Position numbers and translations under genes: made by a program
In this document: positions 23,677 through 44,504 of the stretch, one piece after another
How positions within the stretch are numbered: the first letter of the stretch is position 1
Layout of the letters: the number at the start of each line of letters is the position of its first letter
DNA from: Octopus vulgaris
Lineage: Eukaryota
Length of the DNA: 64,000 nt
Assembly: GCA_951406725.2 (NCBI GenBank)
Contig: OX597818.1
Location: forward strand, 100,936,001-101,000,000
Direction of reading: 5' to 3'
Notes under the pieces: model-generated
What the model was told of the DNA's origin: nothing
What the model saw: only the letters and a program-made list of their open reading frames with translations
Databases searched by the model: none

Positions 23677-24038
23677 CGGATGGGGCCGTTGGCACCGCTT
23701 TCATATATCATTTTCAAAATTCATTTTACTCATATCTATGTAATTGTGATGTTCTATGTCCCCAATGTTTGTAACGTCCTCTCTATGTAGCCCCTAGTGG
23801 GTAATAAAGAAATCAATAGATCTCATTCGTATTTTTGGATTCGCTGGGACTGGGTGTTTTTTTTTCGCTCGTGAAATTCGGTAAAAAAAGAACAAAAGGC
23901 GTTGTTGTTGTTGTGGAAATTCTGAACGGCGTTGATGCGGTTTCGCGTCTCACTGGTTCTGCGCGTTACACTTTTTCGGTTCGGGAGGCCGTTTTTCGGT
24001 CTGAGGCGACTATAAGCCGCCTCCATCAAGCGGAGGAG

Positions 24039-25383: not shown

Positions 25384-25744
25384 CGGATGGGGCCGTTGGC
25401 ACCGCTTTCATATATCATTTACAAAATTCATTTTACTCATATCTATGTAATTGTGATGTTCTATGTCCCCAATGTTTGTAACGTCCCCTCTATGTAGCCC
25501 CTAGTGGGTAATAAAGAAATCAATAGATCTCATTCGTATTTTTGGATTCGCTGGGACTGGGTGTTTTTTTTTCGCTCGTAAAATTCGGTAAGAAGGAGCA
25601 AAAAGCGTTGTTGTTGTTGTGGAAATTCTGAACGGAGTTGATGCGGTTTCGCGTCTCACTGGTTCTGCGCGTTACACTTTTTCGGTTCGGGAGGCCGTTT
25701 TTCGGTCTGAGGCGACTATGAGCCGCCTACATCAAGCGGAGGAG

Positions 25745-27090
25745 ATGGAAGGGAGAAATTGCTCTGAAATTTCGACGGAAGTGTCGACATCTGAGGAGGA
25801 GTTGGCGGTGAGAGGGATGGAAGGCACCTACGCGGGTGTAACGAGGAAGTCAGCGGAAAGAGAGATAGACCTGGCTAAGTTGGCGGGCCTCCAGGAGTTT
25901 GTGAAGGAGGACGAGAACGGTGAAGTCGAGCTGCTGAATCCAGTAGGGCGCGGAGACTGGTTCCATCGTAGAACCATTAAATATAAAGTATTTATGAATG
26001 GAGGTAGAAAGATGGAAGTAATCAACATGGAAGCAATTGAAGAGGCTCTCAAGCAGACAGGAGAGGAAATTGTGTACATGACAAAAGGACTACAATACGG
26101 AACCATAACGGTGCAATTTAAAAGCGAAAAAGCAGCCAAGAATGTAGCAGCAAAGGTGGTGAGTACAGAAAAGATTTACTTGTTACCCTCGTATCTGAAT
26201 AGGCGGACAACCAGAATTAGGGTGGAGGGAATACCTCCACACCTAGAGGGCGAATTAATAACGGCTGCGGTTATAAAAGGAAATGAAGATAAAGTGGACA
26301 TCCTCCACGCCATTATGAAGTATGAAGGCGTGAGAGGTGCCACACTAGTTATGAACATTCAAACGGAGGCGGATGTTATAGAGAGGATTACGGACAGCAT
26401 AAAAACTGGAAATATTATTATGAGAGTGTGGGTGGAGGGTAGGGCGCCCAGGTGCTACAAGTGTGGCCAGAGGGGTCACATAAGAGCCTACTGCCCTCCC
26501 CCACCAAAGGAAAAAGAAAAGGAAAGCGTTGAGGAAGCCTCAAGAGAGGAAGAAAATAAACAGAAACAAACAGAGAAGGAAACGACAGAAGAAGAGGAGA
26601 TGCAACAAGAGTGGAAAGAAGGGGGAACAAAGAGAAAAAGAAAGAAAAAGAAAAACTGTGCGAAGCCCCAACCCACCCCAACACCACCCACACCTCTGAA
26701 TCCCACCCTTCCCCTACAGACAGTGAACCCACCCGCTCCCCTCCAACAAGAAAACAAAAGAAAAATACAGACAGACAAGAGTTTGAAAATGAACCCAGGC
26801 CGAACATTTATATTGTGACCGAACAGAAAGAGGTTGAAAGGGTAATGGAGGAGTATGAATGGTATGAAATGGATGGGACCAGATATGCAGTGCTGGAAAA
26901 GAAGAATATAGATGAGTTTATGTTGAGGTGTGAGGGGGAGAATTGGGAGGTGAAAGATGTAAGAATGAGCGATAAATTCGTGGAATATATGGAGGACAGT
27001 TTCGGAGTAAGAATGGATATGGATGGTCTTCGTATTGGGAATGAACATTCAGGTGACAGTGAAAACAAAAGGTCAGGTAAGTGGTGCTAG
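25745..27090 (+). pseudogene. ORF1 copy 7 (type A, copy-3-like), 1-nt C-run deletion
   Basis: ORFs 25619-26818 and 26611-27090. Confidence 0.7.
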
Positions 27091-27451
27091 CGGATGGGGC
27101 CGTTGGCACCGCTTTCATATATCATTTTCAAAATTCATTTTACTCATATCTATGTAATTGTGATGTTCTATGTCCCCAATGTTTGTAACGTCCCCTCTAT
27201 GTAGCCCCTAGTGGGTAATAAAGAAATCAATAGATCTCATTCGTATTTTTGGATTCGCTGGGACTGGGTGTTTTTTTTTCGCTCGTGAAATTCGGTAAAA
27301 AAGAACAAAAGGCGTTGTTGTTGTTGTGGAAATTCTGAACGGCGTTGATGCGGTTTCGCGTCTCACTGGTTCTGCGCGTTACACTTTTTCGGTTCGGGAG
27401 GCCGTTTTTCGGTCTGAGGCGACTATAAGCCGCCTCCATCAAGCGGAGGAG

Positions 27452-28753
27452 ATGGAAGGGAGAAATTACTCTGAAATTTCGACGGAAGTATCGACATCTG
27501 AGGAGGAGTTGGCGGTGAAAAAGATGGAAGGCACCTACGCAGGTGTAACGAAGAAGTCAACGGAAAGAGAGATAGACCTGGCTAAGTTGGCGGGCCTCCA
27601 GGAGTTTGTGAAGGAGGACGAGAACGGTGAAGTTGAGCTGCTGCATCCAGTAGGGCGCGGAGACTGGTTCCATCGTAGAACCATTAAATATAAAGTATTT
27701 ATGAATGGAGGTAGAAAGATGGAAGTAATCAACATGGAAGCAATTGAAGAGGCTCTCAAGCAGACAGGAGAGGAAATTGTGTACATGACAAAAGGATTAC
27801 AATACGGAACCATAACGGTGCAATTTAAAAGCGAAAAAGCAGCCAGGAATGTAGCAGCCAAGGTGGTGAGTACAGAAAAGATTTACTTGTTACCCTCGTA
27901 TCTGAATAGGCGGACAACCAGAATTAGGGTGGAGGGAATACCTCCACACCTAGAGGGCGAATTAATAACGGCTGCGGTTATAAAAGGAAATGAAGATAAA
28001 GTGGACATCCTCCACGCCATTATGAAGTATGAAGGCGTGAGAGGTGCCACACTAGTTATGAACATTCAAACGGAGGCGGATGTTATAGAGAGGATTACGG
28101 ACAGCATAAAAACTGGAAATATTATTATGAGAGTGTGGGTGGAGGGTAGGGCGCCCAGGTGCTACAAGTGTGGCCAGAGGGGTCACATAAGAGCCTACTG
28201 CCCTCCCCCACCAAAGGAAAAAGAAACGGAAAGCGTTGAGGAAGCCTCAGGAGAGGAAGAAAATAAACAGAAACAAACAGAGAAGGAAACGACAGAAGAA
28301 GAGGAGATGCAACAAGAGTGGAAAGAAGGGGGAACAAAGAGAAAAAGAAGGAAAAAGAAAAACTGTGCGAAGCCCCAACCCACCCCGACACCACCCATAC
28401 CCTTGGAGTCCCATCCTTCCCCTGCAAACAGTGATTCCACCCACTCCCCGCCTACAAGAAAAACAAAAACAGACACACAGAGCAAAGAAAGTCCCAAGAC
28501 CCATTTTTTATGTGTTATACATGGGAAAGACATACAAAACGTTAAAAAACGGGTGTTAACCAAGTGGTACGATCACGAAGATTGTAGCTACACGGCTGTG
28601 GATAGTGATGATACGGGTATATTGGCGAGAAGGTTTGAGGAAGAGGGTGTGTGTTGGAAGTCAGTGGAAATGAAAGATGAATGGATAGAGATGGCTAAAA
28701 GAAAAACGAATGTTGTGATAGGAAAAAAAGGAATACTAATTGGAAATGGGTGA
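27452..28753 (+). CDS. ORF1 copy 8 (type B), intact
   Basis: Continuous ORF ending GKKGILIGNG. Confidence 0.8.
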   Translation: MEGRNYSEISTEVSTSEEELAVKKMEGTYAGVTKKSTEREIDLAKLAGLQEFVKEDENGEVELLHPVGRGDWFHRRTIKYKVFMNGGRKMEVINMEAIEEALKQTGEEIVYMTKGLQYGTITVQFKSEKAARNVAAKVVSTEKIYLLPSYLNRRTTRIRVEGIPPHLEGELITAAVIKGNEDKVDILHAIMKYEGVRGATLVMNIQTEADVIERITDSIKTGNIIMRVWVEGRAPRCYKCGQRGHIRAYCPPPPKEKETESVEEASGEEENKQKQTEKETTEEEEMQQEWKEGGTKRKRRKKKNCAKPQPTPTPPIPLESHPSPANSDSTHSPPTRKTKTDTQSKESPKTHFLCVIHGKDIQNVKKRVLTKWYDHEDCSYTAVDSDDTGILARRFEEEGVCWKSVEMKDEWIEMAKRKTNVVIGKKGILIGNG

Positions 28754-29137
28754 AGAAGGACAGACAAGTGATGCTGGCGGATGGGGCCGTCGGTATCACT
28801 CTCATATATCATTTTCATATTCCATTTTGCTCATATATATGTAATTGTGATGTTCTATGTCCCCAATGTTTGTAACGTCCTCTCTATGTAGCCCCTAGTG
28901 GGTAATAAAGAAATCAATAGATCTCATTCGTATTTTTGGATTCGCTGGGACTGGGTGTTTTTTTTCGCTCGTAAAATTCGGTAAGAAGGAGCAAAAAGCG
29001 TTGTTGTTGTTGTGGAAATTCTGAACGGCGTTGATGCGGTTTCGCGTCTCACTGGTTCTGCGCGTTACACTTTTACGGTTCGGGAGGCCGTTTTTCGGTC
29101 TGAGGCGACTATGAGCCGCCTCCGTCAAGCGGAGGAG

Positions 29138-30484
29138 ATGGAAGGGAGAAATTACTCTGAAATTTCGACGGAAGTATCGACATCTGAGGAGGAGTTGGCG
29201 GTGAAAAAGATGGACGGCTCCTACGCAGGTGTAACGAAGAAGTCAACGGAAAAAGAGATAGACCTGGCTAAGTTGGCGGGCCTCCAGGAGTTTGTGAAGG
29301 AGGACGAGAACGGTGAAGTCGAGCTGCTGCATCCAGTAGGGCGCGGAGACTGGTTCCATCGTAGAACCATTAAATATAAAGTATTTATGAATGGAGGTAG
29401 AAAGATGGAAGTAATCAACATGGAAGCAATTGAAGAGGCTCTCAAGCAGACAGGAGAGGAAATTGTGTACATGACAAAAGGATTACAATACGGAACCATA
29501 ACGGTGCAATTTAAAAGCGAAAAAGCAGCCAGGAATGTAGCAGCCAAGGTGGTGAGTACAGAAAAGATTTACTTGTTACCCTCGTATCTGAATAGGCGGA
29601 CAACCAGAATTAGGGTGGAGGGAATACCTCCACACCTAGAGGGCGAATTAATAACGGCTGCGGTTATAAAAGGAAATGAAGATAAAGTGGACATCCTCCA
29701 CGCCATTATGAAGTATGAAGGCGTGAGAGGTGCCACACTAGTTATGAACATTCAAACGGAGGCGGATGTTATAGAGAGGATTACGGACAGCATAAAAACT
29801 GGAAATATTATTATGAGAGTGTGGGTGGAGGGTAGGGCGCCCAGGTGCTACAAGTGTGGCCAGAGGGGTCACATAAGAGCCTACTGCCCTCCCCCACCAA
29901 AGGAAAAAGAAAAGGAAAGCGTTGAGGAGGCCTCAGGAGAGGAAGAAAATAAACAGAAACAAACAGAGAAGGAAACGACAGAAGAAGAGGAGATGCAACA
30001 AGAGTGGAAAGAAGGGGGAACAAAGAGAAAAAGAAAGAAAAAGAAAAACTGTGCGAAGCCCCAACCCACCCCAACACCACCCGCACCCTCTGAATCCCAC
30101 CCTTCCCCTACAGACAGTGAACCCACCCGCTCCCCTCCAACAAGAAAACAAAAGAAAAATACAGACAGACAAGAGTTTGAAAATGAACCCAGGCCGAACA
30201 TTTATATTGTGACCGAACAGAAAGAGGTTGAAAGGGTAATGGAGGAGTATGAATGGTATGAAATGGATGGGACCAGATATGCAGTGCTGGAAAAGAAGAA
30301 TATAGATGAGTTTATGTTGAGGTGTGAAAGGGTGATTTGGGAGGTGAAAGATATAAGAATGAGCGATGAATTCGTGGAATATATGGAGGACAGTTTCGGA
30401 GTAAGAATGGATATGGATGGTCTTCGTATTGGGAATGAACATTCAGGTGACAGTGAAAACAAAAGGTCAGGTAAGTGGTGCTAG
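29138..30484 (+). CDS. ORF1 copy 9 (type A), intact
   Basis: Continuous ORF. Confidence 0.8.
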   Translation: MEGRNYSEISTEVSTSEEELAVKKMDGSYAGVTKKSTEKEIDLAKLAGLQEFVKEDENGEVELLHPVGRGDWFHRRTIKYKVFMNGGRKMEVINMEAIEEALKQTGEEIVYMTKGLQYGTITVQFKSEKAARNVAAKVVSTEKIYLLPSYLNRRTTRIRVEGIPPHLEGELITAAVIKGNEDKVDILHAIMKYEGVRGATLVMNIQTEADVIERITDSIKTGNIIMRVWVEGRAPRCYKCGQRGHIRAYCPPPPKEKEKESVEEASGEEENKQKQTEKETTEEEEMQQEWKEGGTKRKRKKKKNCAKPQPTPTPPAPSESHPSPTDSEPTRSPPTRKQKKNTDRQEFENEPRPNIYIVTEQKEVERVMEEYEWYEMDGTRYAVLEKKNIDEFMLRCERVIWEVKDIRMSDEFVEYMEDSFGVRMDMDGLRIGNEHSGDSENKRSGKWC

Positions 30485-30845
30485 CGGATGGGGCCGTTGG
30501 CACCGCTTTCATATATCATTTTCAAAATTCATTTTACTCATATCTATGTAATTGTGATGTTCTATGTCCCCAATGTTTGTAACGTCCCCTCTATGTAGCC
30601 CCTAGTGGGTAATAAAGAAATCAATAGATCTCATTCGTATTTTTGGATTCGCTGGGACTGGGTGTTTTTTTTTCGCTCGTGAAATTCGGTAAAAAAGAAC
30701 AAAAGGCGTTGTTGTTGTTGTGGAAATTCTGAACGGCGTTGATGCGGTTCCGCGTCTCACTGGTTCTGCGCGTTACACTTTTTCGGTTCGGGAGGCCGTT
30801 TTTCGGTCTGAGGCGACTATAAGCCGCCTCCATCAAGCGGAGGAG

Positions 30846-32192
30846 ATGGAAGGGAGAAATTACTCTGAAATTTCGACGGAAGTATCGACATCTGAGGAGG
30901 AGTTGGCGGTGAAAAAGATGGAAGGCACCTACGCAGGTGTAACGAAGAAGTCAACGGAAAGAGAGATAGACCTGGCTAAGTTGGCGGGCCTCCAGGAGTT
31001 TGTGAAGGAGGACGAGAACGGTGAAGTTGAGCTGCTGCATCCAGTAGGGCGCGGAGACTGGTTCCATCGTAGAACCATTAAATATAAAGTATTTATGAAT
31101 GGAGGTAGAAAGATGGAAGTAATCAACATGGAAGCAATTGAAGAGGCTCTCAAGCAGACAGGAGAGGAAATTGTGTACATGACAAAAGGATTACAATACG
31201 GAACCATAACGGTGCAATTTAAAAGCGAAAAAGCAGCCAGGAATGTAGCAGCCAAGGTGGTGAGTACAGAAAAGATTTACTTGTTACCCTCGTATCTGAA
31301 TAGGCGGACAACCAGAATTAGGGTGGAGGGAATACCTCCACACCTAGAGGGCGAATTAATAACGGCTGCGGTTATAAAAGGAAATGAAGATAAAGTGGAC
31401 ATCCTCCACGCCATTATGAAGTATGAAGGCGTGAGAGGTGCCACACTAGTTATGAACATTCAAACGGAGGCGGATGTTATAGAGAGGATTACGGACAGCA
31501 TAAAAACTGGAAATATTATTATGAGAGTGTGGGTGGAGGGTAGGGCGCCCAGGTGCTACAAGTGTGGCCAGAGGGGTCACATAAGAGCCTACTGCCCTCC
31601 CCCACCAAAGGAAAAAGAAAAGGAAAGCGTTGAGGAAGCCTCAAGAGAGGAAGAAAATAAACAGAAACAAACAGAGAAGGAAACGACAGAAGAAGAGGAG
31701 ATGCAACAAGAGTGGAAAGAAGGGGGAGCAAAGAGAAAAAGAAAGAAAAAGAAAAACTGTGCGAAGCCCCAACCCACCCCAACACCACCCGCACCCTCTG
31801 AATCCCACCCTTCCCCTACAGACAGTGAACCCACCCGCTCCCCTCCAACAAGAAAACAAAAGAAAAATACAGACAGACAAGAGTTTGAAAATGAACCCAG
31901 GCCGAACATTTATATTGTGACCGAACAGAAAGAGGTTGAAAGGGTAATGGAGGAGTATGAATGGTATGAAATGGATGGGACCAGATATGCAGTGCTGGAA
32001 AAGAAGAATATAGATGAGTTTATGTTGAGGTGTGAGGGGGAGAATTGGGAGGTGAAAGATGTAAGAATGAGCGATGAATTCGTGGAATATATGGAGGACA
32101 GTTTCGGAGTAAGAATGGATATGGATGGTCTTCGTATTGGGAATGAACATTCAGGTGACAGTGAAAACAAAAGGTCAGGTAAGTGGTGCTAG
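30846..32192 (+). CDS. ORF1 copy 10 (type A), intact
   Basis: Continuous ORF. Confidence 0.8.
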   Translation: MEGRNYSEISTEVSTSEEELAVKKMEGTYAGVTKKSTEREIDLAKLAGLQEFVKEDENGEVELLHPVGRGDWFHRRTIKYKVFMNGGRKMEVINMEAIEEALKQTGEEIVYMTKGLQYGTITVQFKSEKAARNVAAKVVSTEKIYLLPSYLNRRTTRIRVEGIPPHLEGELITAAVIKGNEDKVDILHAIMKYEGVRGATLVMNIQTEADVIERITDSIKTGNIIMRVWVEGRAPRCYKCGQRGHIRAYCPPPPKEKEKESVEEASREEENKQKQTEKETTEEEEMQQEWKEGGAKRKRKKKKNCAKPQPTPTPPAPSESHPSPTDSEPTRSPPTRKQKKNTDRQEFENEPRPNIYIVTEQKEVERVMEEYEWYEMDGTRYAVLEKKNIDEFMLRCEGENWEVKDVRMSDEFVEYMEDSFGVRMDMDGLRIGNEHSGDSENKRSGKWC

Positions 32193-32553
32193 CGGATGGG
32201 GCCGTTGGCACCGCTTTCATATATCATTTACAAAATTCATTTTACTCATATCTATGTAATTGTGATGTTCTATGTCCCCAATGTTTGTAACGTCCCCTCT
32301 ATGTAGCCCCTAGTGGGTAATAAAGAAATCAATAGATATCATTCGTATTTTTGGATTCGGTGGGACTGGGTGTTTTTTTTTCGCTCGTAAAATTCGGTAA
32401 GAAGGAGCAAAAAGCGTTGTTGTTGTTGTGGAAATTCTGAACGGAGTTGATGCGGTTTCGCGTCTCACTGGTTCTGCGCGTTACACTTTTTCGGTTCGGG
32501 AGGCCGTTTTTCGGTCTGAGGCGACTATGAGCCGCCTACATCAAGCGGAGGAG

Positions 32554-33900
32554 ATGGAAGGGAGAAATTGCTCTGAAATTTCGACGGAAGTGTCGACATC
32601 TGAGGAGGAGTTGGCGGTGAGAGGGATGGAAGGCACCTACGCGGGTGTAACGAGGAAGTCAGCGGAAAGAGAGATAGACCTGGCTAAGTTGGCGGGCCTC
32701 CAGGAGTTTGTGAAGGAGGACGAGAACGGTGAAGTCGAGCTGCTGAATCCAGTAGGGCGCGGAGACTGGTTCCATCGTAGAACCATTAAATATAAAGTAT
32801 TTATGAATGGAGGTAGAAAGATGGAAGTAATCAACATGGAAGCAATTGAAGAGGCTCTCAAGCAGACAGGAGAGGAAATTGTGTACATGACAAAAGGACT
32901 ACAATACGGAACCATAACGGTGCAATTTAAAAGCGAAAAAGCAGCCAAGAATGTAGCAGCAAAGGTGGTGAGTACAGAAAAGATTTACTTGTTACCCTCG
33001 TATCTGAATAGGCGGACAACCAGAATTAGGGTGGAGGGAATACCTCCACACCTAGAGGGCGAATTAATAACGGCTGCGGTTATAAAAGGAAATGAAGATA
33101 AAGTGGACATCCTCCACGCCATTATGAAGTATGAAGGCGTGAGAGGTGCCACACTAGTTATGAACATTCAAACGGAGGCGGATGTTATAGAGAGGATTAC
33201 GGACAGCATAAAAACTGGAAATATTATTATGAGAGTGTGGGTGGAGGGTAGGGCGCCCAGGTGCTACAAGTGTGGCCAGAGGGGTCACATAAGAGCCTAC
33301 TGCCCTCCCCCACCAAAGGAAAAAGAAAAGGAAAGCGTTGAGGAAGCCTCAAGAGAGGAAGAAAATAAACAGAAACAAACAGAGAAGGAAACGACAGAAG
33401 AAGAGGAGATGCAACAAGAGTGGAAAGAAGGGGGAACAAAGAGAAAAAGAAAGAAAAAGAAAAACTGTGCGAAGCCCCAACCCACCCCAACACCACCCAC
33501 ACCCTCTGAATCCCACCCTTCCCCTACAGACAGTGAACCCACCCGCTCCCCTCCAACAAGAAAACAAAAGAAAAATACAGACAGACAAGAGTTTGAAAAT
33601 GAACCCAGGCCGAACATTTATATTGTGACCGAACAGAAAGAGGTTGAAAGGGTAATGGAGGAGTATGAATGGTATGAAATGGATGGGACCAGATATGCAG
33701 TGCTGGAAAAGAAGAATATAGATGAGTTTATGTTGAGGTGTGAGGGGGAGAATTGGGAGGTGAAAGATGTAAGAATGAGCGATAAATTCGTGGAATATAT
33801 GGAGGACAGTTTCGGAGTAAGAATGGATATGGATGGTCTTCGTATTGGGAATGAACATTCAGGTGACAGTGAAAACAAAAGGTCAGGTAAGTGGTGCTAG
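32554..33900 (+). CDS. ORF1 copy 11 (type A, copy-3-like), intact
   Basis: Continuous ORF with the same variant residues as copy 3. Confidence 0.8.
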   Translation: MEGRNCSEISTEVSTSEEELAVRGMEGTYAGVTRKSAEREIDLAKLAGLQEFVKEDENGEVELLNPVGRGDWFHRRTIKYKVFMNGGRKMEVINMEAIEEALKQTGEEIVYMTKGLQYGTITVQFKSEKAAKNVAAKVVSTEKIYLLPSYLNRRTTRIRVEGIPPHLEGELITAAVIKGNEDKVDILHAIMKYEGVRGATLVMNIQTEADVIERITDSIKTGNIIMRVWVEGRAPRCYKCGQRGHIRAYCPPPPKEKEKESVEEASREEENKQKQTEKETTEEEEMQQEWKEGGTKRKRKKKKNCAKPQPTPTPPTPSESHPSPTDSEPTRSPPTRKQKKNTDRQEFENEPRPNIYIVTEQKEVERVMEEYEWYEMDGTRYAVLEKKNIDEFMLRCEGENWEVKDVRMSDKFVEYMEDSFGVRMDMDGLRIGNEHSGDSENKRSGKWC

Positions 33901-34254
33901 CGGATGGGGCCGTTGGCACCGCTTTCATATATCATTTTCAAAATTCATTTTACTCATATCTATGTAATTGTGATGTTCTATGTCCCCAATGTTTGTAACG
34001 TCCCCTCTATGTAGCCCCTAGTGGGTAATAAAGAAATCAATAGATCTCATTCGTATTTTTGGATTCGCTGGGACTGGGTGTTTTTTTTTTCGCTCGTGAA
34101 ATTCGGTAAAAAAGGCGTTGTTGTTGTTGTGGAAATTCTGAACGGCGTTGATGCGGTTTCGCGTCTCACTGGTTCTGCGCGTTACACTTTTTCGGTTCGG
34201 GAGGCCGTTTTTCGGTCTGAGGCGACTATAAGCCGCCTCCATCAAGCGGAGGAG

Positions 34255-35556
34255 ATGGAAGGGAGAAATTACTCTGAAATTTCGACGGAAGTATCGACAT
34301 CTGAGGAGGAGTTGGCGGTGAAAAAGATGGAAGGCACCTACGCAGGTGTAACGAAGAAGTCAACGGAAAGAGAGATAGACCTGGCTAAGTTGGCGGGCCT
34401 CCAGGAGTTTGTGAAGGAGGACGAGAACGGTGAAGTTGAGCTGCTGCATCCAGTAGGGCGCGGAGACTGGTTCCATCGTAGAACCATTAAATATAAAGTA
34501 TTTATGAATGGAGGTAGAAAGATGGAAGTAATCAACATGGAAGCAATTGAAGAGGCTCTCAAGCAGACAGGAGAGGAAATTGTGTACATGACAAAAGGAT
34601 TACAATACGGAACCATAACGGTGCAATTTAAAAGCGAAAAAGCAGCCAGGAATGTAGCAGCCAAGGTGGTGAGTACAGAAAAGATTTACTTGTTACCCTC
34701 GTATCTGAATAGGCGGACAACCAGAATTAGGGTGGAGGGAATACCTCCACACCTAGAGGGCGAATTAATAACGGCTGCGGTTATAAAAGGAAATGAAGAT
34801 AAAGTGGACATCCTCCACGCCATTATGAAGTATGAAGGCGTGAGAGGTGCCACACTAGTTATGAACATTCAAACGGAGGCGGATGTTATAGAGAGGATTA
34901 CGGACAGCATAAAAACTGGAAATATTATTATGAGAGTGTGGGTGGAGGGTAGGGCGCCCAGGTGCTACAAGTGTGGCCAGAGGGGTCACATAAGAGCCTA
35001 CTGCCCTCCCCCACCAAAGGAAAAAGAAACGGAAAGCGTTGAGGAAGCCTCAGGAGAGGAAGAAAATAAACAGAAACAAACAGAGAAGGAAACGACAGAA
35101 GAAGAGGAGATGCAACAAGAGTGGAAAGAAGGGGGAACAAAGAGAAAAAGAAGGAAAAAGAAAAACTGTGCGAAGCCCCAACCCACCCCGACACCACCCA
35201 TACCCTTGGAGTCCCATCCTTCCCCTGCAAACAGTGATTCCACCCACTCCCCGCCTACAAGAAAAACAAAAACAGACACACAGAGCAAAGAAAGTCCCAA
35301 GACCCATTTTTTATGTGTTATACATGGGAAAGACATACAAAACGTTAAAAAACGGGTGTTAACCAAGTGGTACGATCACGAAGATTGTAGCTACACGGCT
35401 GTGGATAGTGATGATACGGGTATATTGGCGAGAAGGTTTGAGGAAGAGGGTGTGTGTTGGAAGTCAGTGGAAATGAAAGATGAATGGATAGAGATGGCTA
35501 AAAGAAAAACGAATGTTGTGATAGGAAAAAAAGGAATACTAATTGGAAATGGGTGA
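34255..35556 (+). CDS. ORF1 copy 12 (type B), intact
   Basis: Continuous ORF. Confidence 0.8.
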   Translation: MEGRNYSEISTEVSTSEEELAVKKMEGTYAGVTKKSTEREIDLAKLAGLQEFVKEDENGEVELLHPVGRGDWFHRRTIKYKVFMNGGRKMEVINMEAIEEALKQTGEEIVYMTKGLQYGTITVQFKSEKAARNVAAKVVSTEKIYLLPSYLNRRTTRIRVEGIPPHLEGELITAAVIKGNEDKVDILHAIMKYEGVRGATLVMNIQTEADVIERITDSIKTGNIIMRVWVEGRAPRCYKCGQRGHIRAYCPPPPKEKETESVEEASGEEENKQKQTEKETTEEEEMQQEWKEGGTKRKRRKKKNCAKPQPTPTPPIPLESHPSPANSDSTHSPPTRKTKTDTQSKESPKTHFLCVIHGKDIQNVKKRVLTKWYDHEDCSYTAVDSDDTGILARRFEEEGVCWKSVEMKDEWIEMAKRKTNVVIGKKGILIGNG

Positions 35557-35940
35557 AGAAGGACAGACAAGTGATGCTGGCGGATGGGGCCGTCGGTATC
35601 ACTCTCATATATCATTTTCATATTCCATTTTGCTCATATATATGTAATTGTGATGTTCTATGTCCCCAATGTTTGTAACGTCCCCTCTATGTAGCCCCTA
35701 GTGGGTAATAAAGAAATCAATAGATCTCATTCGTATTTTTGGATTCGCTGGGACTGGGTGTTTTTTTTCGCTCGTAAAATTCGGTAAGAAGGAGCAAAAA
35801 GCGTTGTTGTTGTTGTGGAAATTCTGAACGGCGTTGATGCGGTTTCGCGTCTCACTGGTTCTGCGCGTTACACTTTTACGGTTCGGGAGGCCGTTTTTCG
35901 GTCTGAGGCGACTATGAGCCGCCTCCGTCAAGCGGAGGAG

Positions 35941-37288
35941 ATGGAAGGGAGAAATTACTCTGAAATTTCGACGGAAGTATCGACATCTGAGGAGGAGTTG
36001 GCGGTGAAAAAGATGGACGGCACCTACGCAGGTGTAACGAAGAAGTCAACGGAAAAAGAGATAGACCTGGCTAAGTTGGCGGGCCTCCAGGAGTTTGTGA
36101 AGGAGGACGAGAACGGTGAAGTCGAGCTGCTGCATCCAGTAGGGCGCGGAGACTGGTTCCATCGTAGAACCATTAAATATAAAGTATTTATGAATGGAGG
36201 TAGAAAGATGGAAGTAATCAACATGGAAGCAATTGAAGAGGCTCTCAAGCAGACAGGAGAGGAAATTGTGTACATGACAAAAGGATTACAATACGGAACC
36301 ATAACGGTGCAATTTAAAAGCGAAAAAGCAGCCAGGAATGTAGCAGCCAAGGTGGTGAGTACAGAAAAGATTTACTTGTTACCCTCGTATCTGAATAGGC
36401 GGACAACCAGAATTAGGGTGGAGGGAATACCTCCACACCTAGAGGGCGAATTAATAACGGCTGCGGTTATAAAAGGAAATGAAGATAAAGTGGACATCCT
36501 CCACGCCATTATGAAGTATGAAGGCGTGAGAGGTGCCACACTAGTTATGAACATTCAAACGGAGGCGGATGTTATAGAGAGGATTACGGACAGCATAAAA
36601 ACTGGAAATATTATTATGAGAGTGTGGGTGGAGGGTAGGGCGCCCAGGTGCTACAAGTGTGGCCAAAGGGGTCACATAAGAGCCTACTGCCCTCCCCCAC
36701 CAAAGGAAAAAAGAAAAGGAAAGCGTTGAGGAGGCCTCAGGAGAGGAAGAAAATAAACAGAAACAAACAGAGAAGGAAACGACAGAAGAAGAGGAGATGC
36801 AACAAGAGTGGAAAGAAGGGGGAACAAAGAGAAAAAGAAAGAAAAAGAAAAACTGTGCGAAGCCCCAACCCACCCCAACACCACCCGCACCCTCTGAATC
36901 CCACCCTTCCCCTACAGACAGTGAACACACCCGCTCCCCTCCAACAAGAAAACAAAAGAAAAATACAGACAGACAAGAGTTTGAAAATGAACCCAGGCCG
37001 AACATTTATATTGTGACCGAACAGAAAGAGGTTGAAAGGGTAATGGAGGAGTATGAATGGTATGAAATGGATGGGACCAGATATGCAGTGCTGGAAAAGA
37101 AGAATATAGATGAGTTTATGTTGAGGTGTGAAAGGGTGAATTGGGAGGTGAAAGATATAAGAATGAGCGATGAATTCGTGGAATATATGGAGGACAGTTT
37201 CGGAGTAAGAATGGATATGGATGGTCTTCGTATTGGGAATGAACATTCAGGTGACAGTGAAAACAAAAGGTCAGGTAAGTGGTGCTAG
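35941..37288 (+). pseudogene. ORF1 copy 13 (type A), +1 A-run frameshift
   Basis: ORFs 35815-36729 and 36797-37288. Confidence 0.7.
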
Positions 37289-37649
37289 CGGATGGGGCCG
37301 TTGGCACCGCTTTCATATATCATTTTCAAAATTCATTTTACTCATATCTATGTAATTGTGATGTTCTATGTCCCCAATGTTTGTAACGTCCTCTCTATGT
37401 AGCCCCTAGTGGGTAATAAAGAAATCAATAGATCTCATTCGTATTTTTGGATTCGCTGGGACTGGGTGTTTTTTTTTCGCTCGTGAAATTCGGTAAAAAA
37501 GAACAAAAGGCGTTGTTGTTGTTGTGGAAATTCTGAACGGCGTTGATGCGGTTTCGCGTCTCACTGGTTCTGCGCGTTACACTTTTTCGGTTCGGGAGGC
37601 CGTTTTTCGGTCTGAGGCGACTATAAGCCGCCTCCGTCAAGCGGAGGAG

Positions 37650-38997
37650 ATGGAAGGGAGAAATTACTCTGAAATTTCGACGGAAGTATCGACATCTGAG
37701 GAGGAGTTGGCGGTGAAAAAGATGGAAGGCACCTACGCAGGTGTAACGAAGAAGTCAACGGAAAGAGAGATAGACCTGGCTAAGTTGGCGGGCCTCCAGG
37801 AGTTTGTGAAGGAGGACGAGAACGGTGAAGTTGAGCTGCTGCATCCAGTAGGGCGCGGAGACTGGTTCCATCGTAGAACCATTAAATATAAAGTATTTAT
37901 GAATGGAGGTAGAAAGATGGAAGTAATCAACATGGAAGCAATTGAAGAGGCTCTCAAGCAGACAGGAGAGGAAATTGTGTACATGACAAAAGGATTACAA
38001 TACGGAACCATAACGGTGCAATTTAAAAGCGAAAAAGCAGCCAGGAATGTAGCAGCCAAGGTGGTGAGTACAGAAAAGATTTACTTGTTACCCTCGTATC
38101 TGAATAGGCGGACAACCAGAATTAGGGTGGAGGGAATACCTCCACACCTAGAGGGCGAATTAATAACGGCTGCGGTTATAAAAGGAAATGAAGATAAAGT
38201 GGACATCCTCCACGCCATTATGAAGTATGAAGGCGTGAGAGGTGCCACACTAGTTATGAACATTCAAACGGAGACGGATGTTATAGAGAGGATTACGGAC
38301 AGCATAAAAACTGGAAATATTATTATGAGAGTGTGGGTGGAGGGTAGGGCGCCCAGGTGCTACAAGTGTGGCCAGAGGGGTCACATAAGAGCCTACTGCC
38401 CTCCCCCACCAAAGGAAAAAAGAAAAGGAAAGCGTTGAGGAAGCCTCAAGAGAGGAAGAAAATAAACAGAAACAAACAGAGAAGGAAACGACAGAAGAAG
38501 AGGAGATGCAACAAGAGTGGAAAGAAGGGGGAACAAAGAGAAAAAGAAAGAAAAAGAAAAACTGTGCGAAGCCCCAACCCACCCCAACACCACCCGCACC
38601 CTCTGAATCCCACCCTTCCCCTACAGACAGTGAACCCACCCGCTCCCCTCCAACAAGAAAACAAAAGAAAAATACAGACAGACAAGAGTTTGAAAATGAA
38701 CCCAGGCCGAACATTTATATTGTGACCGAACAGAAAGAGGTTGAAAGGGTAATGGAGGAGTATGAATGGTATGAAATGGATGGGACCAGATATGCAGTGC
38801 TGGAAAAGAAGAATATAGATGAGTTTATGTTGAGGTGTGAGGGGGAGAATTGAGAGGTGAAAGATGTAAGAATGAGCGATGAATTCGTGGAATATATGGA
38901 GGACAGTTTCGGAGTAAGAATGGATATGGATGGTCTTCGTATTGGGAATGAACATTCAGGTGACAGTGAAAACAAAAGGTCAGGTAAGTGGTGCTAG
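37650..38997 (+). pseudogene. ORF1 copy 14 (type A), +1 A-run frameshift and TGG-to-TGA nonsense
   Basis: ORFs 37524-38438 and 38506-38853, the latter ending in a premature TGA. Confidence 0.75.
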
Positions 38998-39361
38998 CGG
39001 ATGGGGCCGTTGGCACCGCTTTCATATATCATTTTCAAAATTCATTTTACTCATATCTATGTAATTGTGATGTTCTATGTCCCCAATGTTTGTAACGTCC
39101 CCTCTATGTAGCCCCTAGTGGGTAATAAAGAAATCAATAGATCTCATTCGTATTTTTGGATTCGCTGGGACTGGGTGTTTTTTTTTTTCGCTCGTGAAAT
39201 TCGGTAAAAAAAGAACAAGGAGCGTTGTTGTTGTTGTGGAGGTTCTGAACGGCGTTGATGCGGTTTCGCGTCTCACTGGTTCTGCGCGTTACACTTTTTC
39301 GGTTCGGGAGGCCGTTTTTCGGTCTGAGGCGACTATGAGCCGCCTCTATCAAGCGGAGGAG

Positions 39362-40663
39362 ATGGAAGGGAGAATTTACTCTGAAATTTCGACGGAAGTA
39401 TCGACATCTGAGGAGGAGTTGGCGGTGAAAAGGATGGAAGGCACCTGCGCAGGTGTAACGAGGAAGTCAACGGAAAGAGAGATGGACCTGGCTAAGTTGG
39501 CGGGCCTCCAGGAGTTTGTGAAGGAGGACGAGAACGGTGAAGTCGAGCTGCTGAATCCAGTAGGGCGCGGAGACTGGTTCCATCGTGGAACCATTAAATA
39601 TAAAGTGTTTATGAATGGAGGTGGAAGGATGGAAGTAATCAACATGGAAGCAGTTGAAGGGGCTCTCAAGCAGACAGGAGAGGAAATTGTGTACATGACA
39701 AGAGGATTACGGTGCGGAACCATGGCGGTGCAATTTAAAAGCGAAAGAGCAGCCAGGAATGTAGCAGCCAGGGTGGTGAGTACAGAAAGGATTTACTTGT
39801 TGCCCTCGTATCTGAATGGGCGGACAGCCGGAATTGGGGTGGAGGGAATACCTCCACACCTGGAGGGCGAATTAATGACGGCTGCGGTTATAAAAGGAAA
39901 TGAAGATAAAGTGGACATCCTCCACGCCATTATGAAGTATGAAGGCGTGAGAGGTGCCACACTAGTTATGAACATTCAAACGGAGGCGGATGTTATAGAG
40001 AGGATTACGGACAGCATAAAAACTGGAAATATTATTATGAGAGTGTGGGTGGAGGGTAGGGCGCCCAGGTGCTACAAGTGTGGCCAGAGGGGTCACATAA
40101 GAGCCTACTGCCCTCCCCCACCACAGGAAAAAGAAAAGGAAAGCGTTGAGGAAGCCTCAAGAGAGGAAGAAAATAAACAGAAACAAACAGAGAAGGAAAC
40201 GACAGAAGAAGAGGAGATGCAACAAGAGTGGAAAGAAGGGGGAACAAAGAGAAAAAGAAAGAAAAAGAAAAACTGTGCGAAGCCCCAACCCACTCCGACA
40301 CCACCCATACCCTTGGAGTCCCACCCTTCCCCTGCAAACAGCGATTCCACCCACTCCCCGCCTACAAGAAAAACAAAAACAGACACACAGAGCAAAGAAA
40401 GTCCCAAGACCCACTTTTTATGTATTATACATGGGAAAGACATACAAAACGTTAAAAAACGGGTGTTAACCAAGTGGTACGAACACGAAGATTGTAGCTA
40501 CACGGCTGTGGATAGTGATGATACGGGTATATTGGCGAGAAGGTTTGAGGAAGAGGGTGTGTGTTGGAAGTCAGTGGAAATGAAAGATGAATGGATAGAG
40601 ATGGCTAAAAGAAAAACGAATGTTGTGATAGGAAAAAAAGGAATACTAATTGGAAATGGGTGA
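39362..40663 (+). CDS. ORF1 copy 15 (type B), intact but A-to-G hypermutated in the 5' part
   Basis: Protein shows GTCAG, REMD, HRGT, GGGRM, AVEGA, TRGLRCGTMA, ERAA, NGRTAGIGV and ELMT relative to consensus. Confidence 0.8.
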   Translation: MEGRIYSEISTEVSTSEEELAVKRMEGTCAGVTRKSTEREMDLAKLAGLQEFVKEDENGEVELLNPVGRGDWFHRGTIKYKVFMNGGGRMEVINMEAVEGALKQTGEEIVYMTRGLRCGTMAVQFKSERAARNVAARVVSTERIYLLPSYLNGRTAGIGVEGIPPHLEGELMTAAVIKGNEDKVDILHAIMKYEGVRGATLVMNIQTEADVIERITDSIKTGNIIMRVWVEGRAPRCYKCGQRGHIRAYCPPPPQEKEKESVEEASREEENKQKQTEKETTEEEEMQQEWKEGGTKRKRKKKKNCAKPQPTPTPPIPLESHPSPANSDSTHSPPTRKTKTDTQSKESPKTHFLCIIHGKDIQNVKKRVLTKWYEHEDCSYTAVDSDDTGILARRFEEEGVCWKSVEMKDEWIEMAKRKTNVVIGKKGILIGNG

Positions 40664-41038
40664 AGAAGGACAGACAAGTGATGCTGGCGGATGGGGCCGT
40701 CGGTATCACTCTCATATATCATTTTCATATTCCATTGTGCTCATATATATGTAATTGTGATGTTCTATGTCCCCAATGTTTGTAACGTCCCCTCTATGTA
40801 GCCCCTAGTGGGTAATAAAGAAAAGATTCGTATTTTTGGATTTGCTGGGACTGGGTGTTTTTTTTTCGCTCGTAAAATTCGGTAAAAAAGAACAAAAAGC
40901 GTTGTTGTTGTTGTGGAAATTCTGAACGGCGTTGATGCGGTTTCGCGTCTCACTGGTTCTGCGCGTTACACTTTTTCGGTTCGGGAGGCCGTTTTTCGGT
41001 CTGAGGCGACTATGAGCCGCCTCCATCAAGCGGAGGAG

Positions 41039-42339
41039 ATGGAAGGGAGAATTTACTCTGAAATTTCGACGGAAGTATCGACATCGGAGGAGGAGTTGGC
41101 GGTGAAAAAGATGGAAGGCACCTACGCAGGTGTAACGAAGAAGTCAACGGAAAGAGAGATAGACCTGGCTAAGTTGGCGGGCCTCCAGGAGTTTGTGAAG
41201 GAGGACGAGAACGGTGAAGTTGAGCTGCTGCATCCAGTAGGGCGCGGAGACTGGTTCCATCGTAGAACCATTAAATATAAAGTATTTATGAATGGAGGTA
41301 GAAAGATGGAAGTAATTAACATGGAAGCAATTGAAGAGGCTCTCAAGCAGACAGGAGAGGAAATTGTGTACATGACAAAAGGATTACAATACGGAACCAT
41401 AACGGTGCAATTTAAAAGTGAAAAAGCAGCCAGGAATGTAGCAGCCAAGGTGGTGAGTACAGAAAAGATTTACTTGTTACCCTCGTATCTGAATAGGCGG
41501 ACAACCAGAATTAGGGTGGAGGGAATACCTCCACACCTAGAGGGCGAATTAATAACGGCTGCGGTTATAAAAGGAAATGAAGATAAAGTGGACATCCTCC
41601 ACGCCATTATGAAGTATGAAGGCGTGAGAGGTGCCACACTAGTTATGAACATTCAAACGGAGGCGGATGTTATAGAGAGGATTACGGACAGCATAAAAAC
41701 TGGAAATATTATTATGAGAGTGTGGGTGGAGGGTAGGGCGCCCAGGTGCTACAAGTGTGGCCAAAGGGGCCACATAAGAGCCTACTGCCCTCCCCCACCA
41801 AAGGAAAAAGAAAAGGAAAGCGTTGAGGAAGCCTCAAGAGAGGAAGAAAATAAACAGAAACAAACAGAGAAGGAAACGACAGAAGAAGAGGAGATGCAAC
41901 AAGAGTGGAAAGAAGGGGGAACAAAGAGAAAAAGAAGAAAAAGAAAAACTGTGCGAAGCCCCAACCCACTCCGACACCACCCATACCCTTGGAGTCCCAC
42001 CCTTCCCCTGCAAACAGCGATTCCACCCACTCCCCGCCTACAAGAAAAACAAAAACAGACACACAGAGCAAAGAAAGTCCCAAGACCCACTTTTTATGTA
42101 TTATACATGGGAAAGACATACAAAACGTTAAAAAACGGGTGTTAACCAAGTGGTACGAACACGAAGATTGTAGCTACACGGCTGTGGATAGTGATGATAC
42201 GGGTATATTGGCGAGAAGGTTTGAGGAAGAGGGTGTGTGTTGGAAGTCAGTGGAAATGAAAGATGAATGGATAGAGAGGGCTAAAAGAAAAACGAATGTT
42301 GTGATAGGTAAAAAAGGAATACTAATTGGAAATGGGTGA
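41039..42339 (+). pseudogene. ORF1 copy 16 (type B), 1-nt A-run deletion
   Basis: ORFs 40913-42145 and 41905-42339. Confidence 0.7.
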
Positions 42340-42694
42340 AGAAGGACAGACAAGTGATGCTGGCGGATGGGGCCGTCGGTATCACTCTCATATATCATTT
42401 TCATATTCCATTTTGCTCATATATATGTAATTGTGATGTTCTATGTCCCCAATGTTTGTAACGTCCCCTCTATGTAGCCCCTAGTGGGTAATAAAGAAAA
42501 GATTCGTATTTTTGGATTCGCTAGGACTGGGTGTTTTTTTTTTACGCTCGTAAAATTCGGTAAAAAAGAACAAAAAGTGTTGTGGTTGTTGTGGAAATTC
42601 TGAACGGCGTTGACGCGGTTTCGCGTTTCGCTCGTTCTGCGCGTTACACTTTTTCTGTTTTGGCGGCCGTTTTCGGTCTGTCAGACAGAAGGAG

Positions 42695-44118
42695 ATGGAC
42701 TATGAGTCTCTAACAGATTTGTCCACGACAGATGAGGAACTGGAACAGGCAATTACAATGAAGCTGATAGAAGAAAAGGCTGGAGTTTTCGAGTCTTTAT
42801 CAGACTTGTCTGAGAAGGAGCTAGAAATGGCAGCAAGGAAATTGGACGAGAAGCTGGGATATACCTACGCCGGTGTAACCAAGAAGGCGGAAGAGAAAGG
42901 GGTCGACTTGGCCAAGCTACCAAGTTACCAGAAATACATGAAAAAGGAAAGCGGTGAGGTGGAACTATCACCGACACCCAGGAGAAAAGAATGGTATGAT
43001 AAGAGGACCATTATTTACAGGGTGTTCGCAAACGAAAGGAAGAGGGTAGAAGTTGTAACCATGGAATGGATAGAGGAAGCCCTGCGAAGAACTGAGGAGG
43101 AAATTAATTTTCTGACTCGAGGATCCAAGTACGGTACCGTTGTGGTACATTTTAAAAGTGAATCTGCAGCGAGGAAGATGGCGGCGAAGGCGGTGAAGTC
43201 AGAAAAGGTAACACTGTTACCTACGTATTTAAACAAAAGGATTACACGAATAAGGGTGGAGGGAGTGCCCCCAAACGTGGAGGCAGAGTGGATTGTGGCG
43301 GCTGTGATCAGCGGCCACGAGGACGAAGTGGATATTCTCCATGCCTCGGTTAAGTCCGAGGGTTGGAGAGGCGTAACAGTGGAGCTGAACGTACAGGCGG
43401 AGAACGAGGTACTGGTGGACCTTGCGGAAAGCATCAGACAGGGAGACGTGATCATGAGAGTGTGGGTGGAGGGCCGGGCTCCACGTTGTTACAAGTGTGG
43501 CCTGAGGGGTCACATAAGAGCCTTCTGCCCTCCCCCAGGGAAAGAAATGGAGTCCGAACCACAGAGAGAGAAGCAGAAACCAGAGGAGAAGCAGAAACGA
43601 GTAGAAGAGGAAGAGAATACACAGAAATGGAAGGAAGTTGGAAATAAGAGGAAGAGAAGAATGCGAGAAAAAAAAGAAAATAACATGGAACACCAATCTA
43701 CCCCAAAACCACCCACACCCTTTGAGTCCCACCCTATCCATGCAGACATTGAACCCACCCGCTCCCCCCAACAAGAAAACAAAAGAAAAAAAAAGAATAC
43801 ACACACAGACAAGAGATTGAATTCGATATCAGGCCGTACATTTGTACTATGACTGAACAGAAAGAAGTTAAAAGTCTAATGGAAGAGTATAAATGGTACG
43901 AAGTTGGTGAGACTAGGTATGCTGTGATTGAAAAGAAGAACATAGGTGAGTTTATGGTGAGGTGTGAAAGGGAGAATTGGGAGGTGAAAGATATAAGAAT
44001 GAGCGATGAATTCGTGGAAAATATGGATGAGTATTTCGGAGTAAGAATGGATATGGAATTTATTCGTATTGGCAAAGAACATTCAAGGGACGATGAAAAA
44101 CAAAGGACAGGTAAGTGA
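42695..44118 (+). pseudogene. ORF1 copy 17, divergent subfamily, frameshifted before its type-A-like C-terminal module
   Basis: 385-aa ORF with TYAGVTKK, RIRVEGVPPN and CYKCGLRGHIRAFC. Continues in another frame as TEQKEVKSLMEEYKWYE... Confidence 0.8.
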
Positions 44119-44504
44119 TGCTGACGGATGGGGCCGTTGGTATCGCTTTCATTTTATCATTTTTTCGTTTAACAATTCATTTTCATAAATTTTAATTATA
44201 ATGTTCTATGTCCCCATGTCTTGTGGTGTCCCCCTCTGTGTCGCCCCCTGGTGGGTAATAAAGAAATGTGATGCTGACGGATGGGGCCGTTGGTATCGCT
44301 TTCATAATATCATTTTCTTTCACTTAACAATTCATTTTTCATAAATTTTAATTATAAATGTTCTATGTCCCCATGTCTTTTTGTGTCCACCTCTGTGTCG
44401 CCCCTAGTGGGTAATAAAGAAATCGCATAGTTTGTCCGATGTTACAGATATCGGACGGGTATGTTTGATTCTTAGTATTTTCAAATCTAAATCAAAAGAA
44501 ATCT

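What the first reader, a model, noticed from the sequence alone, without database searches (positions are those of the whole stretch)
39219..39877. Genomic copy bearing an ADAR-type A-to-G hyper-editing footprint
Seen: compared with its near-identical neighbours, array copy 15 has about 30 A-to-G changes on the sense strand in ~660 bp, and almost no other substitution type. Examples: GAAATT>GAGGTT, TAC>TGC, AGAAAG>GGAAGG, CAATAC>CGGTGC, ATAACG>ATGGCG, AGG>GGG, ACCAGA>GCCGGA, CTA>CTG. By my count only one changed A has a 5' G. The cluster stops sharply at ~39880. Established: ADAR hyper-editing gives clustered, strand-specific A-to-I changes (read as G) with 5'-G depletion; APOBEC would give G-to-A; coleoid cephalopods edit heavily. 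Inference: an edited transcript was reverse-transcribed and integrated, making the RNA edits heritable. A-to-G cannot create stop codons, so the ORF stays open with roughly 20 amino-acid changes. Host editing would thus act as a germline diversifier or restriction mechanism for this element.
Basis: partly seen in the sequence, partly recalled or inferred. Interest (0 to 1): 0.92.

Follow-up and report, generated by a model that had tools for sequence, protein, structure and literature searches.

The report
RNA-editing marks fixed in retrotransposon DNA
One copy in a tandem array of a small retrotransposon, and about twenty other copies in the same genome, carry dense one-strand A-to-G changes that look like RNA editing copied back into DNA, which would make normally temporary RNA edits heritable.

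Summary
Confirmed, and not a one-off. Copy 15 has 28 private A>G in 39219-39877 against one other private change; 1 of 31 A>G sites has a 5' G. The 1.7-kb unit is an ORF1-only, non-autonomous derivative of an L1-group LINE; a young intact partner LINE with the same 3' end is in the genome. Of 212 units from across the genome, 19 carry A>G clusters and 0 carry clusters of any other of 11 classes (null mean 0.04). Clusters are always on the element's sense strand, on both assembly strands, with 5'-neighbour rates T 0.48, A 0.41, C 0.17, G 0.04. Some copies carry 110-167 changes. A contig matching another edited copy appears in runs of two studies; copy 15's own haplotype was not found in any run. 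Best reading (0.85): ADAR-hyper-edited RNA was reverse-transcribed by the partner LINE into the germline. Not shown: the dsRNA partner, inosine in transcripts, ADAR dependence, any restriction or diversifying role. Ten literature searches found no report of this for LINEs.

The parts
39219..39877 (+). A>G hypermutation cluster of copy 15 (28 private + 3 shared A>G; ADAR-type 5' context)
39178..40825 (+). Copy 15 body: T-tract 5' end, ORF1-like frame, 3' UTR; non-autonomous ORF1-only LINE derivative
39194..40663 (+). Open frame of copy 15 (489 codons from GTG; true start unknown), LINE ORF1p-like
40067..40114 (+). CCHC zinc knuckle, outside the edited span and intact
   Evidence: (E=0.0013, just under the Pfam cut-off)
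39136..39177 (+). Locus-specific spacer found before each of the 17 units and nowhere else in the genome; read as a repeated target-site duplication or carried 5' flank
   Evidence: 17 hits, all in the window
40802..40820 (+). 3'-terminal motif with polyadenylation signal, shared with the autonomous partner LINE; unedited
18953..19045 (+). Second A>G cluster (8 sites) in copy 3
25761..25853 (+). Same cluster in copy 7 (DNA-level duplicate of copy 3; coordinates approximate)
32570..32662 (+). Same cluster in copy 11 (duplicate; coordinates approximate)
15295..42501 (+). Head-to-tail array of 16 subfamily-A units; units 1-14 form a 4-unit (6.8 kb) higher-order repeat
42502..44424 (+). Unit 17 (subfamily B, about 73% identical) plus an extra 3'-terminal fragment of about 150 bp

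Best explanation
The unit is a non-autonomous, ORF1-only derivative of an L1-group LINE, moved in trans by a young intact LINE that shares its 3' end (anatomy shown; trans-mobilisation inferred). New copies land at the 5' boundary of older copies or of the partner LINE, building head-to-tail arrays (junctions shown; order inferred). A fraction of sense transcripts become double-stranded over 50-1600 nt with an unidentified complementary RNA, and an ADAR deaminates about 10-50% of the As in that stretch (signature shown; duplex and enzyme inferred). The LINE RT copies inosine as G during target-primed reverse transcription, so the new genomic copy carries sense-strand A>G. Antisense RNA lacks the recognised 3' end and is not copied, so T>C clusters do not appear (inferred). 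Copy 15 is one such event, probably templated by RNA from this same array. This occurred in the germline at least for copies shared between samples.
For: 19 of 212 units have an A>G cluster, 0 of 212 for each of 11 other classes; permutation null mean 0.04, max 1 of 200. Clusters lie on plus (15) and minus (4) assembly strands but are always sense A>G. Pooled context, 15 events: 5' T 136/284, A 287/695, C 50/293, G 26/647; 3' G 186/565 is the highest; upstream-G depletion is the shared ADAR motif (PMC5625713, passages). Extreme copies: 110 of 110 rare differences are A>G (C10), 167 of 179 (C6). Edits do not run into the upstream neighbour (0 of 779 As, 11 neighbours) and are scarce in the last 300 nt (1-2% vs 8-17% in the 5' half). 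Partner LINE: APE + RT + zf-RVT, best solved relative human L1 ORF2p, E=5e-65; ORF1 38% identical to the unit's, E=2e-42; same 3' motif. Four loci with the A_deamin domain. A 174-nt contig with the difference count (26) and the listed alleles of the edited C2 copy is in runs X1 and X2, two studies. Copy 15's nearest relative is in its own array (0.72% vs 1.58% elsewhere, A>G excluded).
Against: No dsRNA partner found: no long inverted repeat in the unit, no inverted copy in the window, and 774 nt of an unedited copy fold only into short local helices (z=-3.9, 20 shuffles). A human study found sense/antisense duplexes are rarely edited (PMC13445718, abstract). Copy 15's own haplotype is unseen in raw data: best word share 0.33 equals the share expected from unedited copies. 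X1/X2 are labelled DNA by a guess, and the match to the C2 copy rests on counts and listed sites, not the contig letters. The one presumed RNA run laid shows no clear A>G excess (26 A>G vs 15 T>C places). Edited units carry more other rare substitutions than unedited ones (median 3.5 vs 1.8 per kb, p=0.003), which fits age-dependent accumulation, though duplicated sisters lower the unedited figure. Invertebrate hyper-editing is reported to favour A downstream, whereas here G is favoured. Human L1 RNA was not found edited in cell culture (PMC5224506, passages).
Confidence: 0.85

Rival explanations
1. ADAR deaminates the genomic sense DNA strand in place, inside a hybrid with antisense RNA; no reverse transcription is involved.
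For: Full-length ADAR2 edits the DNA strand of a 90-bp matched hybrid in vitro with the usual context preference (PMC5389660, passages). It would explain edited units keeping locus-specific spacers, their slightly higher background divergence and the many edited copies in an older subfamily (biased sample).
Against: Hybrids with the sense transcript would give sense T>C clusters: 0 of 212. All-RNA duplexes were the best substrate and only three sites reacted in the long hybrid. 5'-most, presumed youngest, units are enriched for clusters (5 of 20 vs 13 of 160, p=0.03, uncorrected). Some heavily edited copies have almost no other change.
Confidence: 0.05
2. Copy 15's G alleles are a sequencing, polishing or assembly artefact.
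For: Copy-15-specific words were found in none of the 24 listed runs. Systematic same-type mismatch clusters have entered references before (G-to-A in Sanger traces; PMC2873906, passages).
Against: An artefact should not follow element orientation, yet 15 plus- and 4 minus-strand units all show sense A>G and none T>C. Another edited copy is matched in two studies' contigs, and further low-depth A>G-rich contigs occur in X1.
Confidence: 0.04
3. Error bursts of the LINE RT (misincorporation opposite A under dNTP imbalance, or DGR-like adenine-specific infidelity) on unmodified RNA.
For: Also predicts sense-only changes at template As, confined to single insertions; needs no dsRNA, and none was found.
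Against: The ten-fold 5'-G depletion in the order T,A>C>G is the ADAR pattern. A>C and A>T clusters: 0 of 212. The same sites recur in independent events about as context predicts. The partner LINE, presumably copied by the same RT, has far fewer clusters (1 of 34 young alignments).
Confidence: 0.04
4. Gene conversion from a diverged G-rich donor, or G is ancestral.
For: The array's units are mosaics: copy 15 shares single alleles with several unit types.
Against: No unit among 217 shares more than 19 of copy 15's 30 sites, and that one is itself hyper-edited. A genome search with copy 15 found no relative above 95%. Truly diverged copies show mixed spectra.
Confidence: 0.02

Closest known systems
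APOBEC 'DNA editing' of LTR retrotransposons/ERVs (PMC4866542, passages)
   Same: Deaminase-type, strand-biased hypermutation clusters fixed in genomic retroelement copies; found by copy-to-copy comparison; motif-dependent.
   Different: There G>A from C-to-U on cDNA, in LTR elements of vertebrates, with the 19 invertebrate genomes at noise level. Here A>G with ADAR context in a non-LTR derivative. That screen covered LTR elements and DNA transposons, not LINEs.
ADAR A>G hypermutated retroviral sequences (Rous-associated virus, ALV, HTLV-2/STLV; as summarised in PMC12925331, passages; originals not seen)
   Same: Edited RNA passed through reverse transcription into DNA, with up to about 50% of As changed.
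   Different: Exogenous viruses, with an inverted-repeat substrate in one case. Here endogenous, recurrent (about 22 events), apparently inherited, and no internal duplex.
HAL1 (half-L1) ORF1-only non-autonomous LINE derivatives (PMC5753468, passages)
   Same: Encodes only ORF1p; L1-group partner present.
   Different: Independent origin in a non-mammalian genome (inferred); head-to-tail self-targeted arrays; usually no poly(A) tail after the AATAAA signal.
Drosophila HeT-A/TART/TAHRE (PMC5537684, passages)
   Same: Non-autonomous element lacking pol, in head-to-tail mixed arrays with an autonomous partner. Antisense transcription is known there and is a model for the missing dsRNA.
   Different: Those are telomeric; these arrays are mostly interstitial and the partner RT is L1-like.
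ADAR hyper-editing of repeat RNAs in cephalopods and other metazoans (PMC5625713, PMC9068888, passages)
   Same: Same cluster and upstream-G signature; repeats are the main target.
   Different: Those are RNA-versus-DNA mismatches; here the changes are in the genome sequence.

Membership tests
ADAR hyper-editing footprint | Dense clusters of one mismatch type, A>G | tested here: met
   28 of 29 private changes in the span; 19 vs 0 clusters in 212 units
ADAR hyper-editing footprint | Strand specificity relative to the transcript | tested here: met
   Sense A>G on 15 plus and 4 minus units; no T>C cluster
ADAR hyper-editing footprint | Depletion of G 5' of the edited A | tested here: met
   26/647 vs T 136/284, A 287/695, C 50/293
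ADAR hyper-editing footprint | 3'-neighbour preference | tested here: inconclusive
   G 0.33, C 0.29, T 0.23, A 0.21: fits the vertebrate-type G preference, not the A enrichment reported for invertebrates
ADAR hyper-editing footprint | Long double-stranded RNA substrate | tested here: inconclusive
   None within the unit or window; one 940-bp palindrome of the unit's 3' half on C1; trans partners untested
ADAR hyper-editing footprint | ADAR-family genes in the host | tested here: met
   A_deamin matches over cut-off at 4 loci; not assigned to ADAR vs ADAT/ADAD
ADAR hyper-editing footprint | Inosine in the RNA and dependence on ADAR | not testable with these tools
   Only contigs were available; the presumed RNA run was uninformative
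Retrotransposed, inherited copy | Edited alleles present in raw DNA data | tested here: inconclusive
   Not seen for copy 15; matched for the C2 copy in runs of two studies
HAL1-like ORF1-only LINE derivative | ORF1 homologous to an L1-group LINE ORF1, no ORF2 | tested here: met
   38% identity over 190 aa, E=2e-42; partner ORF2 nearest L1 ORF2p; one long ORF per unit
HAL1-like ORF1-only LINE derivative | 3' end shared with the autonomous partner | tested here: met
HAL1-like ORF1-only LINE derivative | Target-site duplications | tested here: inconclusive
   Spacer repeats the 3' flank in C2a, C4a, C10c; in the window it matches the 5' flank only
HAL1-like ORF1-only LINE derivative | 3' poly(A) tail (recalled L1 feature) | tested here: not met
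   Most junctions end a few bases after AATAAA; long A runs in only a few
Tx1 clade (partner LINE) | RT phylogeny places it in Tx1 rather than L1 proper | not tested
   No tree built; only L1-group domain order and best solved hit
APOBEC DNA-edited retroelement | G>A clusters on the sense strand | tested here: not met
   0 of 212
Diversity-generating retroelement | A-to-any-base changes in a variable repeat copied from a template repeat (recalled) | tested here: not met
   A>C and A>T clusters 0 of 212; positions vary along the whole unit
HeT-A-type telomeric element | Arrays confined to chromosome ends | tested here: not met
   Arrays at interior positions of many contigs

The most novel reading that the evidence does not exclude
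In this genome ADAR hyper-editing is routinely written back into the germline by an active LINE RT. Roughly one in eleven copies of an ORF1-only element was born from inosine-rich RNA, often re-inserted beside its source. Edited copies can be transcribed, edited again and re-inserted: the adjacent C38 pair shares 30 of 35 sites vs 19.9 expected. The genome thus holds a datable fossil record of germline dsRNA editing, and stop-free ORF1 variants with dozens of substitutions arise in one step.
Probability: 0.45. Interest if true: 0.92.

Novelty: new variant of a known kind. Interest (0 to 1): 0.8.

Why it matters
A-to-I edits are normally lost with the RNA. A 2016 review says a role for ADAR editing in retrotransposon evolution or suppression by mutation was assumed but undetermined (PMC4982230, passages); human L1 RNA was not found edited; and the large screen for edited retroelement copies found invertebrates at noise level. 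Here a simple copy-to-copy comparison gives about 22 genomic events with a clean ADAR-type signature. If it holds, it shows ADAR acting on transposition-competent RNA in the germline, gives a genomic readout of where and how often, and makes testable whether editing restricts or diversifies a LINE family. The same scan can be run on any chromosome-level assembly.

Tried and rejected
Pfam on the unit ORF: only a sub-threshold zinc knuckle. Protein homologue search: 0 of 1701 candidates. Rfam on 38900-45000: 2 chance-level matches, no ribozyme. dsRNA source: no long inverted repeat or inverted copy. Whole-unit pairwise test was too strict: 6 A>G units, 0 for three control classes, and it missed copy 15; it was replaced by the windowed rare-allele test. 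The first family pass (>=85% identity, 5' part only) flagged 12 of 179 copies and lost the heaviest ones. One degenerate pattern for edited B copies found 0; the A pattern found 3. Sequencing runs: none held more than 0.33 of copy 15's words; low-share runs were not used. The presumed RNA run X3 gave no usable editing signal. Two C38 units were first set aside as ambiguous and left out of the pooled context; they were later shown to be hyper-edited members of a minor subfamily. Penelope/DIRS identity for the unit was considered from the T-tract and tandem layout and rejected once the L1-group partner was found. Earlier-findings look-ups returned nothing. Hajjar and Linial 1995 was not held. 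No supplements were read; supplementary note S4 of PMC4866542 may bear on invertebrate A>G clusters. No RT tree was built. The host species was not determined; 2.8 Gb in about 30 large contigs fits an octopus only by recall.

Full report
Observation. The window holds a head-to-tail array of 16 units of about 1.7 kb (15305-42501) and a 17th, 73% identical unit. Copy 15 differs from the other 15 units by 31 A>G between 39219 and 39877, 28 of them private, and by one other private substitution in that span. Only one site has a 5' G. Against copy 16 there are 30 A>G among 217 As in the span and 2 among 347 As downstream (p=2e-11). 23 of 26 affected codons are non-synonymous and the frame stays open. 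Copies 3, 7 and 11 share a second cluster of 8 A>G; they are near-identical duplicates in a 4-unit higher-order repeat and count as one event.

What the unit is. Each unit has one long frame with a CCHC knuckle. The language-model atlas places it near RRM/CCHC and ZCCHC3-like proteins (score 0.93, a lead only); a sequence search found nothing (0 of 1701 candidates). The genome has at least 315 matches to a family pattern, mostly in tandem arrays that mix subfamilies. Directly 3' of several arrays lies an intact LINE with endonuclease, RT and zf-RVT domains, closest among solved structures to human L1 ORF2p (E=5e-65). Its ORF1 is 38% identical to the unit's (E=2e-42), its 3' terminus carries the unit's terminal motif, and 34 of the 40 listed hits are 97-100% identical. 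The unit is therefore an ORF1-only non-autonomous L1-group derivative, like HAL1 in design (PMC5753468, passages). Tx1 versus L1 was not resolved. Junctions show units joined to the 5' end of older units or of the LINE, with locus-specific spacers that in several arrays repeat the 3' flank. The window's spacer occurs 17 times, all here. I infer repeated insertion at one site, growing 5'-ward, followed by DNA-level duplication.

The pattern is family-wide. I extracted 217 units from the window and fetched loci and dropped 5 with under 600 informative positions. A cluster was defined as at least 6 rare changes of one class in 250 nt, making up at least 75% of rare changes there. A>G clusters occur in 19 of 212 units and none of the other 11 classes occurs in any; shuffling class labels gives a mean of 0.04, maximum 1 in 200 runs. 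15 of the 19 lie on the plus and 4 on the minus assembly strand (of 135 and 77), always as sense A>G. Collapsing the duplicates leaves 17 events. A minor subfamily adds two more (C6: 167 of 179 differences; C1: 60), and 3 of 15 further copies fetched with an edited query add three: about 22 in all. The 9% rate is approximate, because loci were chosen by similarity searches, some with edited queries, and not all copies were sampled. Pooled context over 15 events (two duplicates and two then-ambiguous C38 units left out): 5' T 136/284, A 287/695, C 50/293, G 26/647; 3' G 186/565, C 95/329, T 75/324, A 147/694. Upstream-G depletion is the motif shared by ADARs across animals; the same paper reports downstream A enrichment for invertebrates, which does not match (PMC5625713, passages). 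The genome has four A_deamin loci. Clusters do not enter the upstream neighbour (0 of 779 As; downstream neighbours 7 of 927) and thin out toward the 3' end. The partner LINE shows a cluster in 1 of 34 young alignments and 1 of 4 older ones; per base this is about seven-fold lower (p=0.014), but those copies were ranked by identity over ORF1, which biases against edited ones.

Raw data. The best run holds 0.33 of copy 15's sampled words, equal to the 227 of 683 words shared with other copies, so copy 15's haplotype is not shown in any of 24 listed runs. None is shown to be the assembled individual, and contigs drop rare variants. Four runs were laid. X1 and X2, from two studies and labelled DNA by guess, each contain a 174-nt contig over 39608-39781 with 26 differences from copy 15. 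The hyper-edited C2 copy gives exactly 26 there, the only one of 81 A-type copies to do so. Depth shortfalls at 39712, 39724 and 39747 in X1 equal that contig's depth (65.8), and at 39724 in X2 equal 15.6. Two further low-depth X1 contigs carry G at several recurrent sites. This supports real, shared, hence inherited, edited copies, by counts rather than by seeing the contig letters. The presumed RNA run X3 was uninformative.

Mechanism. Shown: signature, strand, confinement to units, a partner RT with a shared 3' end. Inferred: a duplex forms on sense RNA, ADAR edits it, and the LINE RT copies I as G at insertion. Copy 15's nearest relative is in its own array, the spacer ahead of the edited C2 unit has one A>G, and 5'-most units are modestly enriched for clusters (5 of 20 vs 13 of 160, p=0.03 uncorrected); these hint at local re-insertion. 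The weak point is the duplex: none in the unit or window, one 940-bp palindrome of the 3' half elsewhere, and a human study finding little editing of sense/antisense duplexes (PMC13445718, abstract). The best rival is in-place editing of DNA in a hybrid (possible in vitro: PMC5389660, passages). It is helped by the higher background divergence of edited units but needs antisense-only hybrids, given zero T>C clusters. RT error, artefact and conversion fit worse (see rivals).

Consequence. In the sampled set, edited copies have no dispersed descendants: apart from the 3/7/11 duplicates, sites are shared mainly with other hyper-edited copies, at roughly or somewhat above context expectation. One adjacent pair on C38 shares 30 of 35 sites against 19.9 expected, suggesting re-editing of an edited source, but 5 unshared sites keep this tentative. 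11 of 19 edited and 124 of 186 full-length unedited units keep an open stretch of 400 or more codons. Restriction and diversification are both unproven.

Comparison and novelty. The nearest known kinds are APOBEC G>A edited ERVs (PMC4866542, passages: LTR elements and DNA transposons screened, invertebrates at noise) and A>G hypermutated retroviral sequences (PMC12925331, passages; originals not seen). ADAR1 restricts human L1 without editing, and 2.5 kb of L1 RNA showed no edits (PMC5224506, passages). A review calls mutation of retrotransposons by ADAR undetermined (PMC4982230, passages). Cephalopod editing targets repeats at the RNA level (PMC9068888, passages). PMC2873906, PMC5974252 and PMC5537684 were read in passages. 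Ten searches (mostly listings and abstract openings) returned no report of genomic LINE-type copies with ADAR footprints; the library lacks most subscription journals and no supplements were read. Verdict: real, most likely ADAR edits written into the germline by LINE reverse transcription; a new variant of a known kind; interest 0.8.

Noticed in passing
window:1-1931 (+): G+C-rich stretch that reads as 28S rDNA (recognised by recall, no tool match run) and stops at what I recall as the R2 insertion site, followed by AT-rich DNA.
   Followed up: no
window:56804-58867 (-): 687-codon frame with a YRDD motif that looks like a Penelope-type RT (recalled); Pfam gave only a weak unrelated hit.
   Followed up: partly
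window:14912-15200 and 44559-44847: About 290-bp direct duplication with one mismatch on both sides of the array, not abutting it.
   Followed up: partly
window:51801-54277: About four 558-bp tandem units ending in an inverted 307-bp copy.
   Followed up: no
window:44117-44424: The 3'-terminal 150 bp of unit 17, which begins with a hairpin-like inverted repeat, is present twice in tandem.
   Followed up: no
L047:8938-9999 continuing into L123: 940-bp palindrome (898 matches) of the unit's 3' half; a candidate fold-back dsRNA source.
   Followed up: partly
L037:4649-9920: Intact young L1-group LINE, itself in 5.26-kb tandems, usually followed by a repeat that begins with the same 14 letters as its own 5' end: apparent self-targeting.
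   Followed up: partly
L132 and L136: A>G clusters in copies of the autonomous LINE: 18 in 48 nt, and a cluster near the 3' end of an older copy.
   Followed up: partly
L060 (C38), two adjacent units: Both hyper-edited and sharing 30 of 35 sites; possible second round of editing on an already edited source.
   Followed up: partly
L032 junction vs L041/L042: The spacer typical of the C2 array recurs at one junction of the C3 array, suggesting transcripts carry upstream spacer between loci.
   Followed up: no
L055, L043, L048, L082 (3' of the arrays): A further ORF1-like element family, also tandem in L055, sits behind some arrays.
   Followed up: no
193 non-cluster units: Scattered rare A>G also lean to 5' A/T (4.6 and 4.1 vs 2.7 and 2.2 per 1000), hinting at low-level editing in more copies.
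   Followed up: partly
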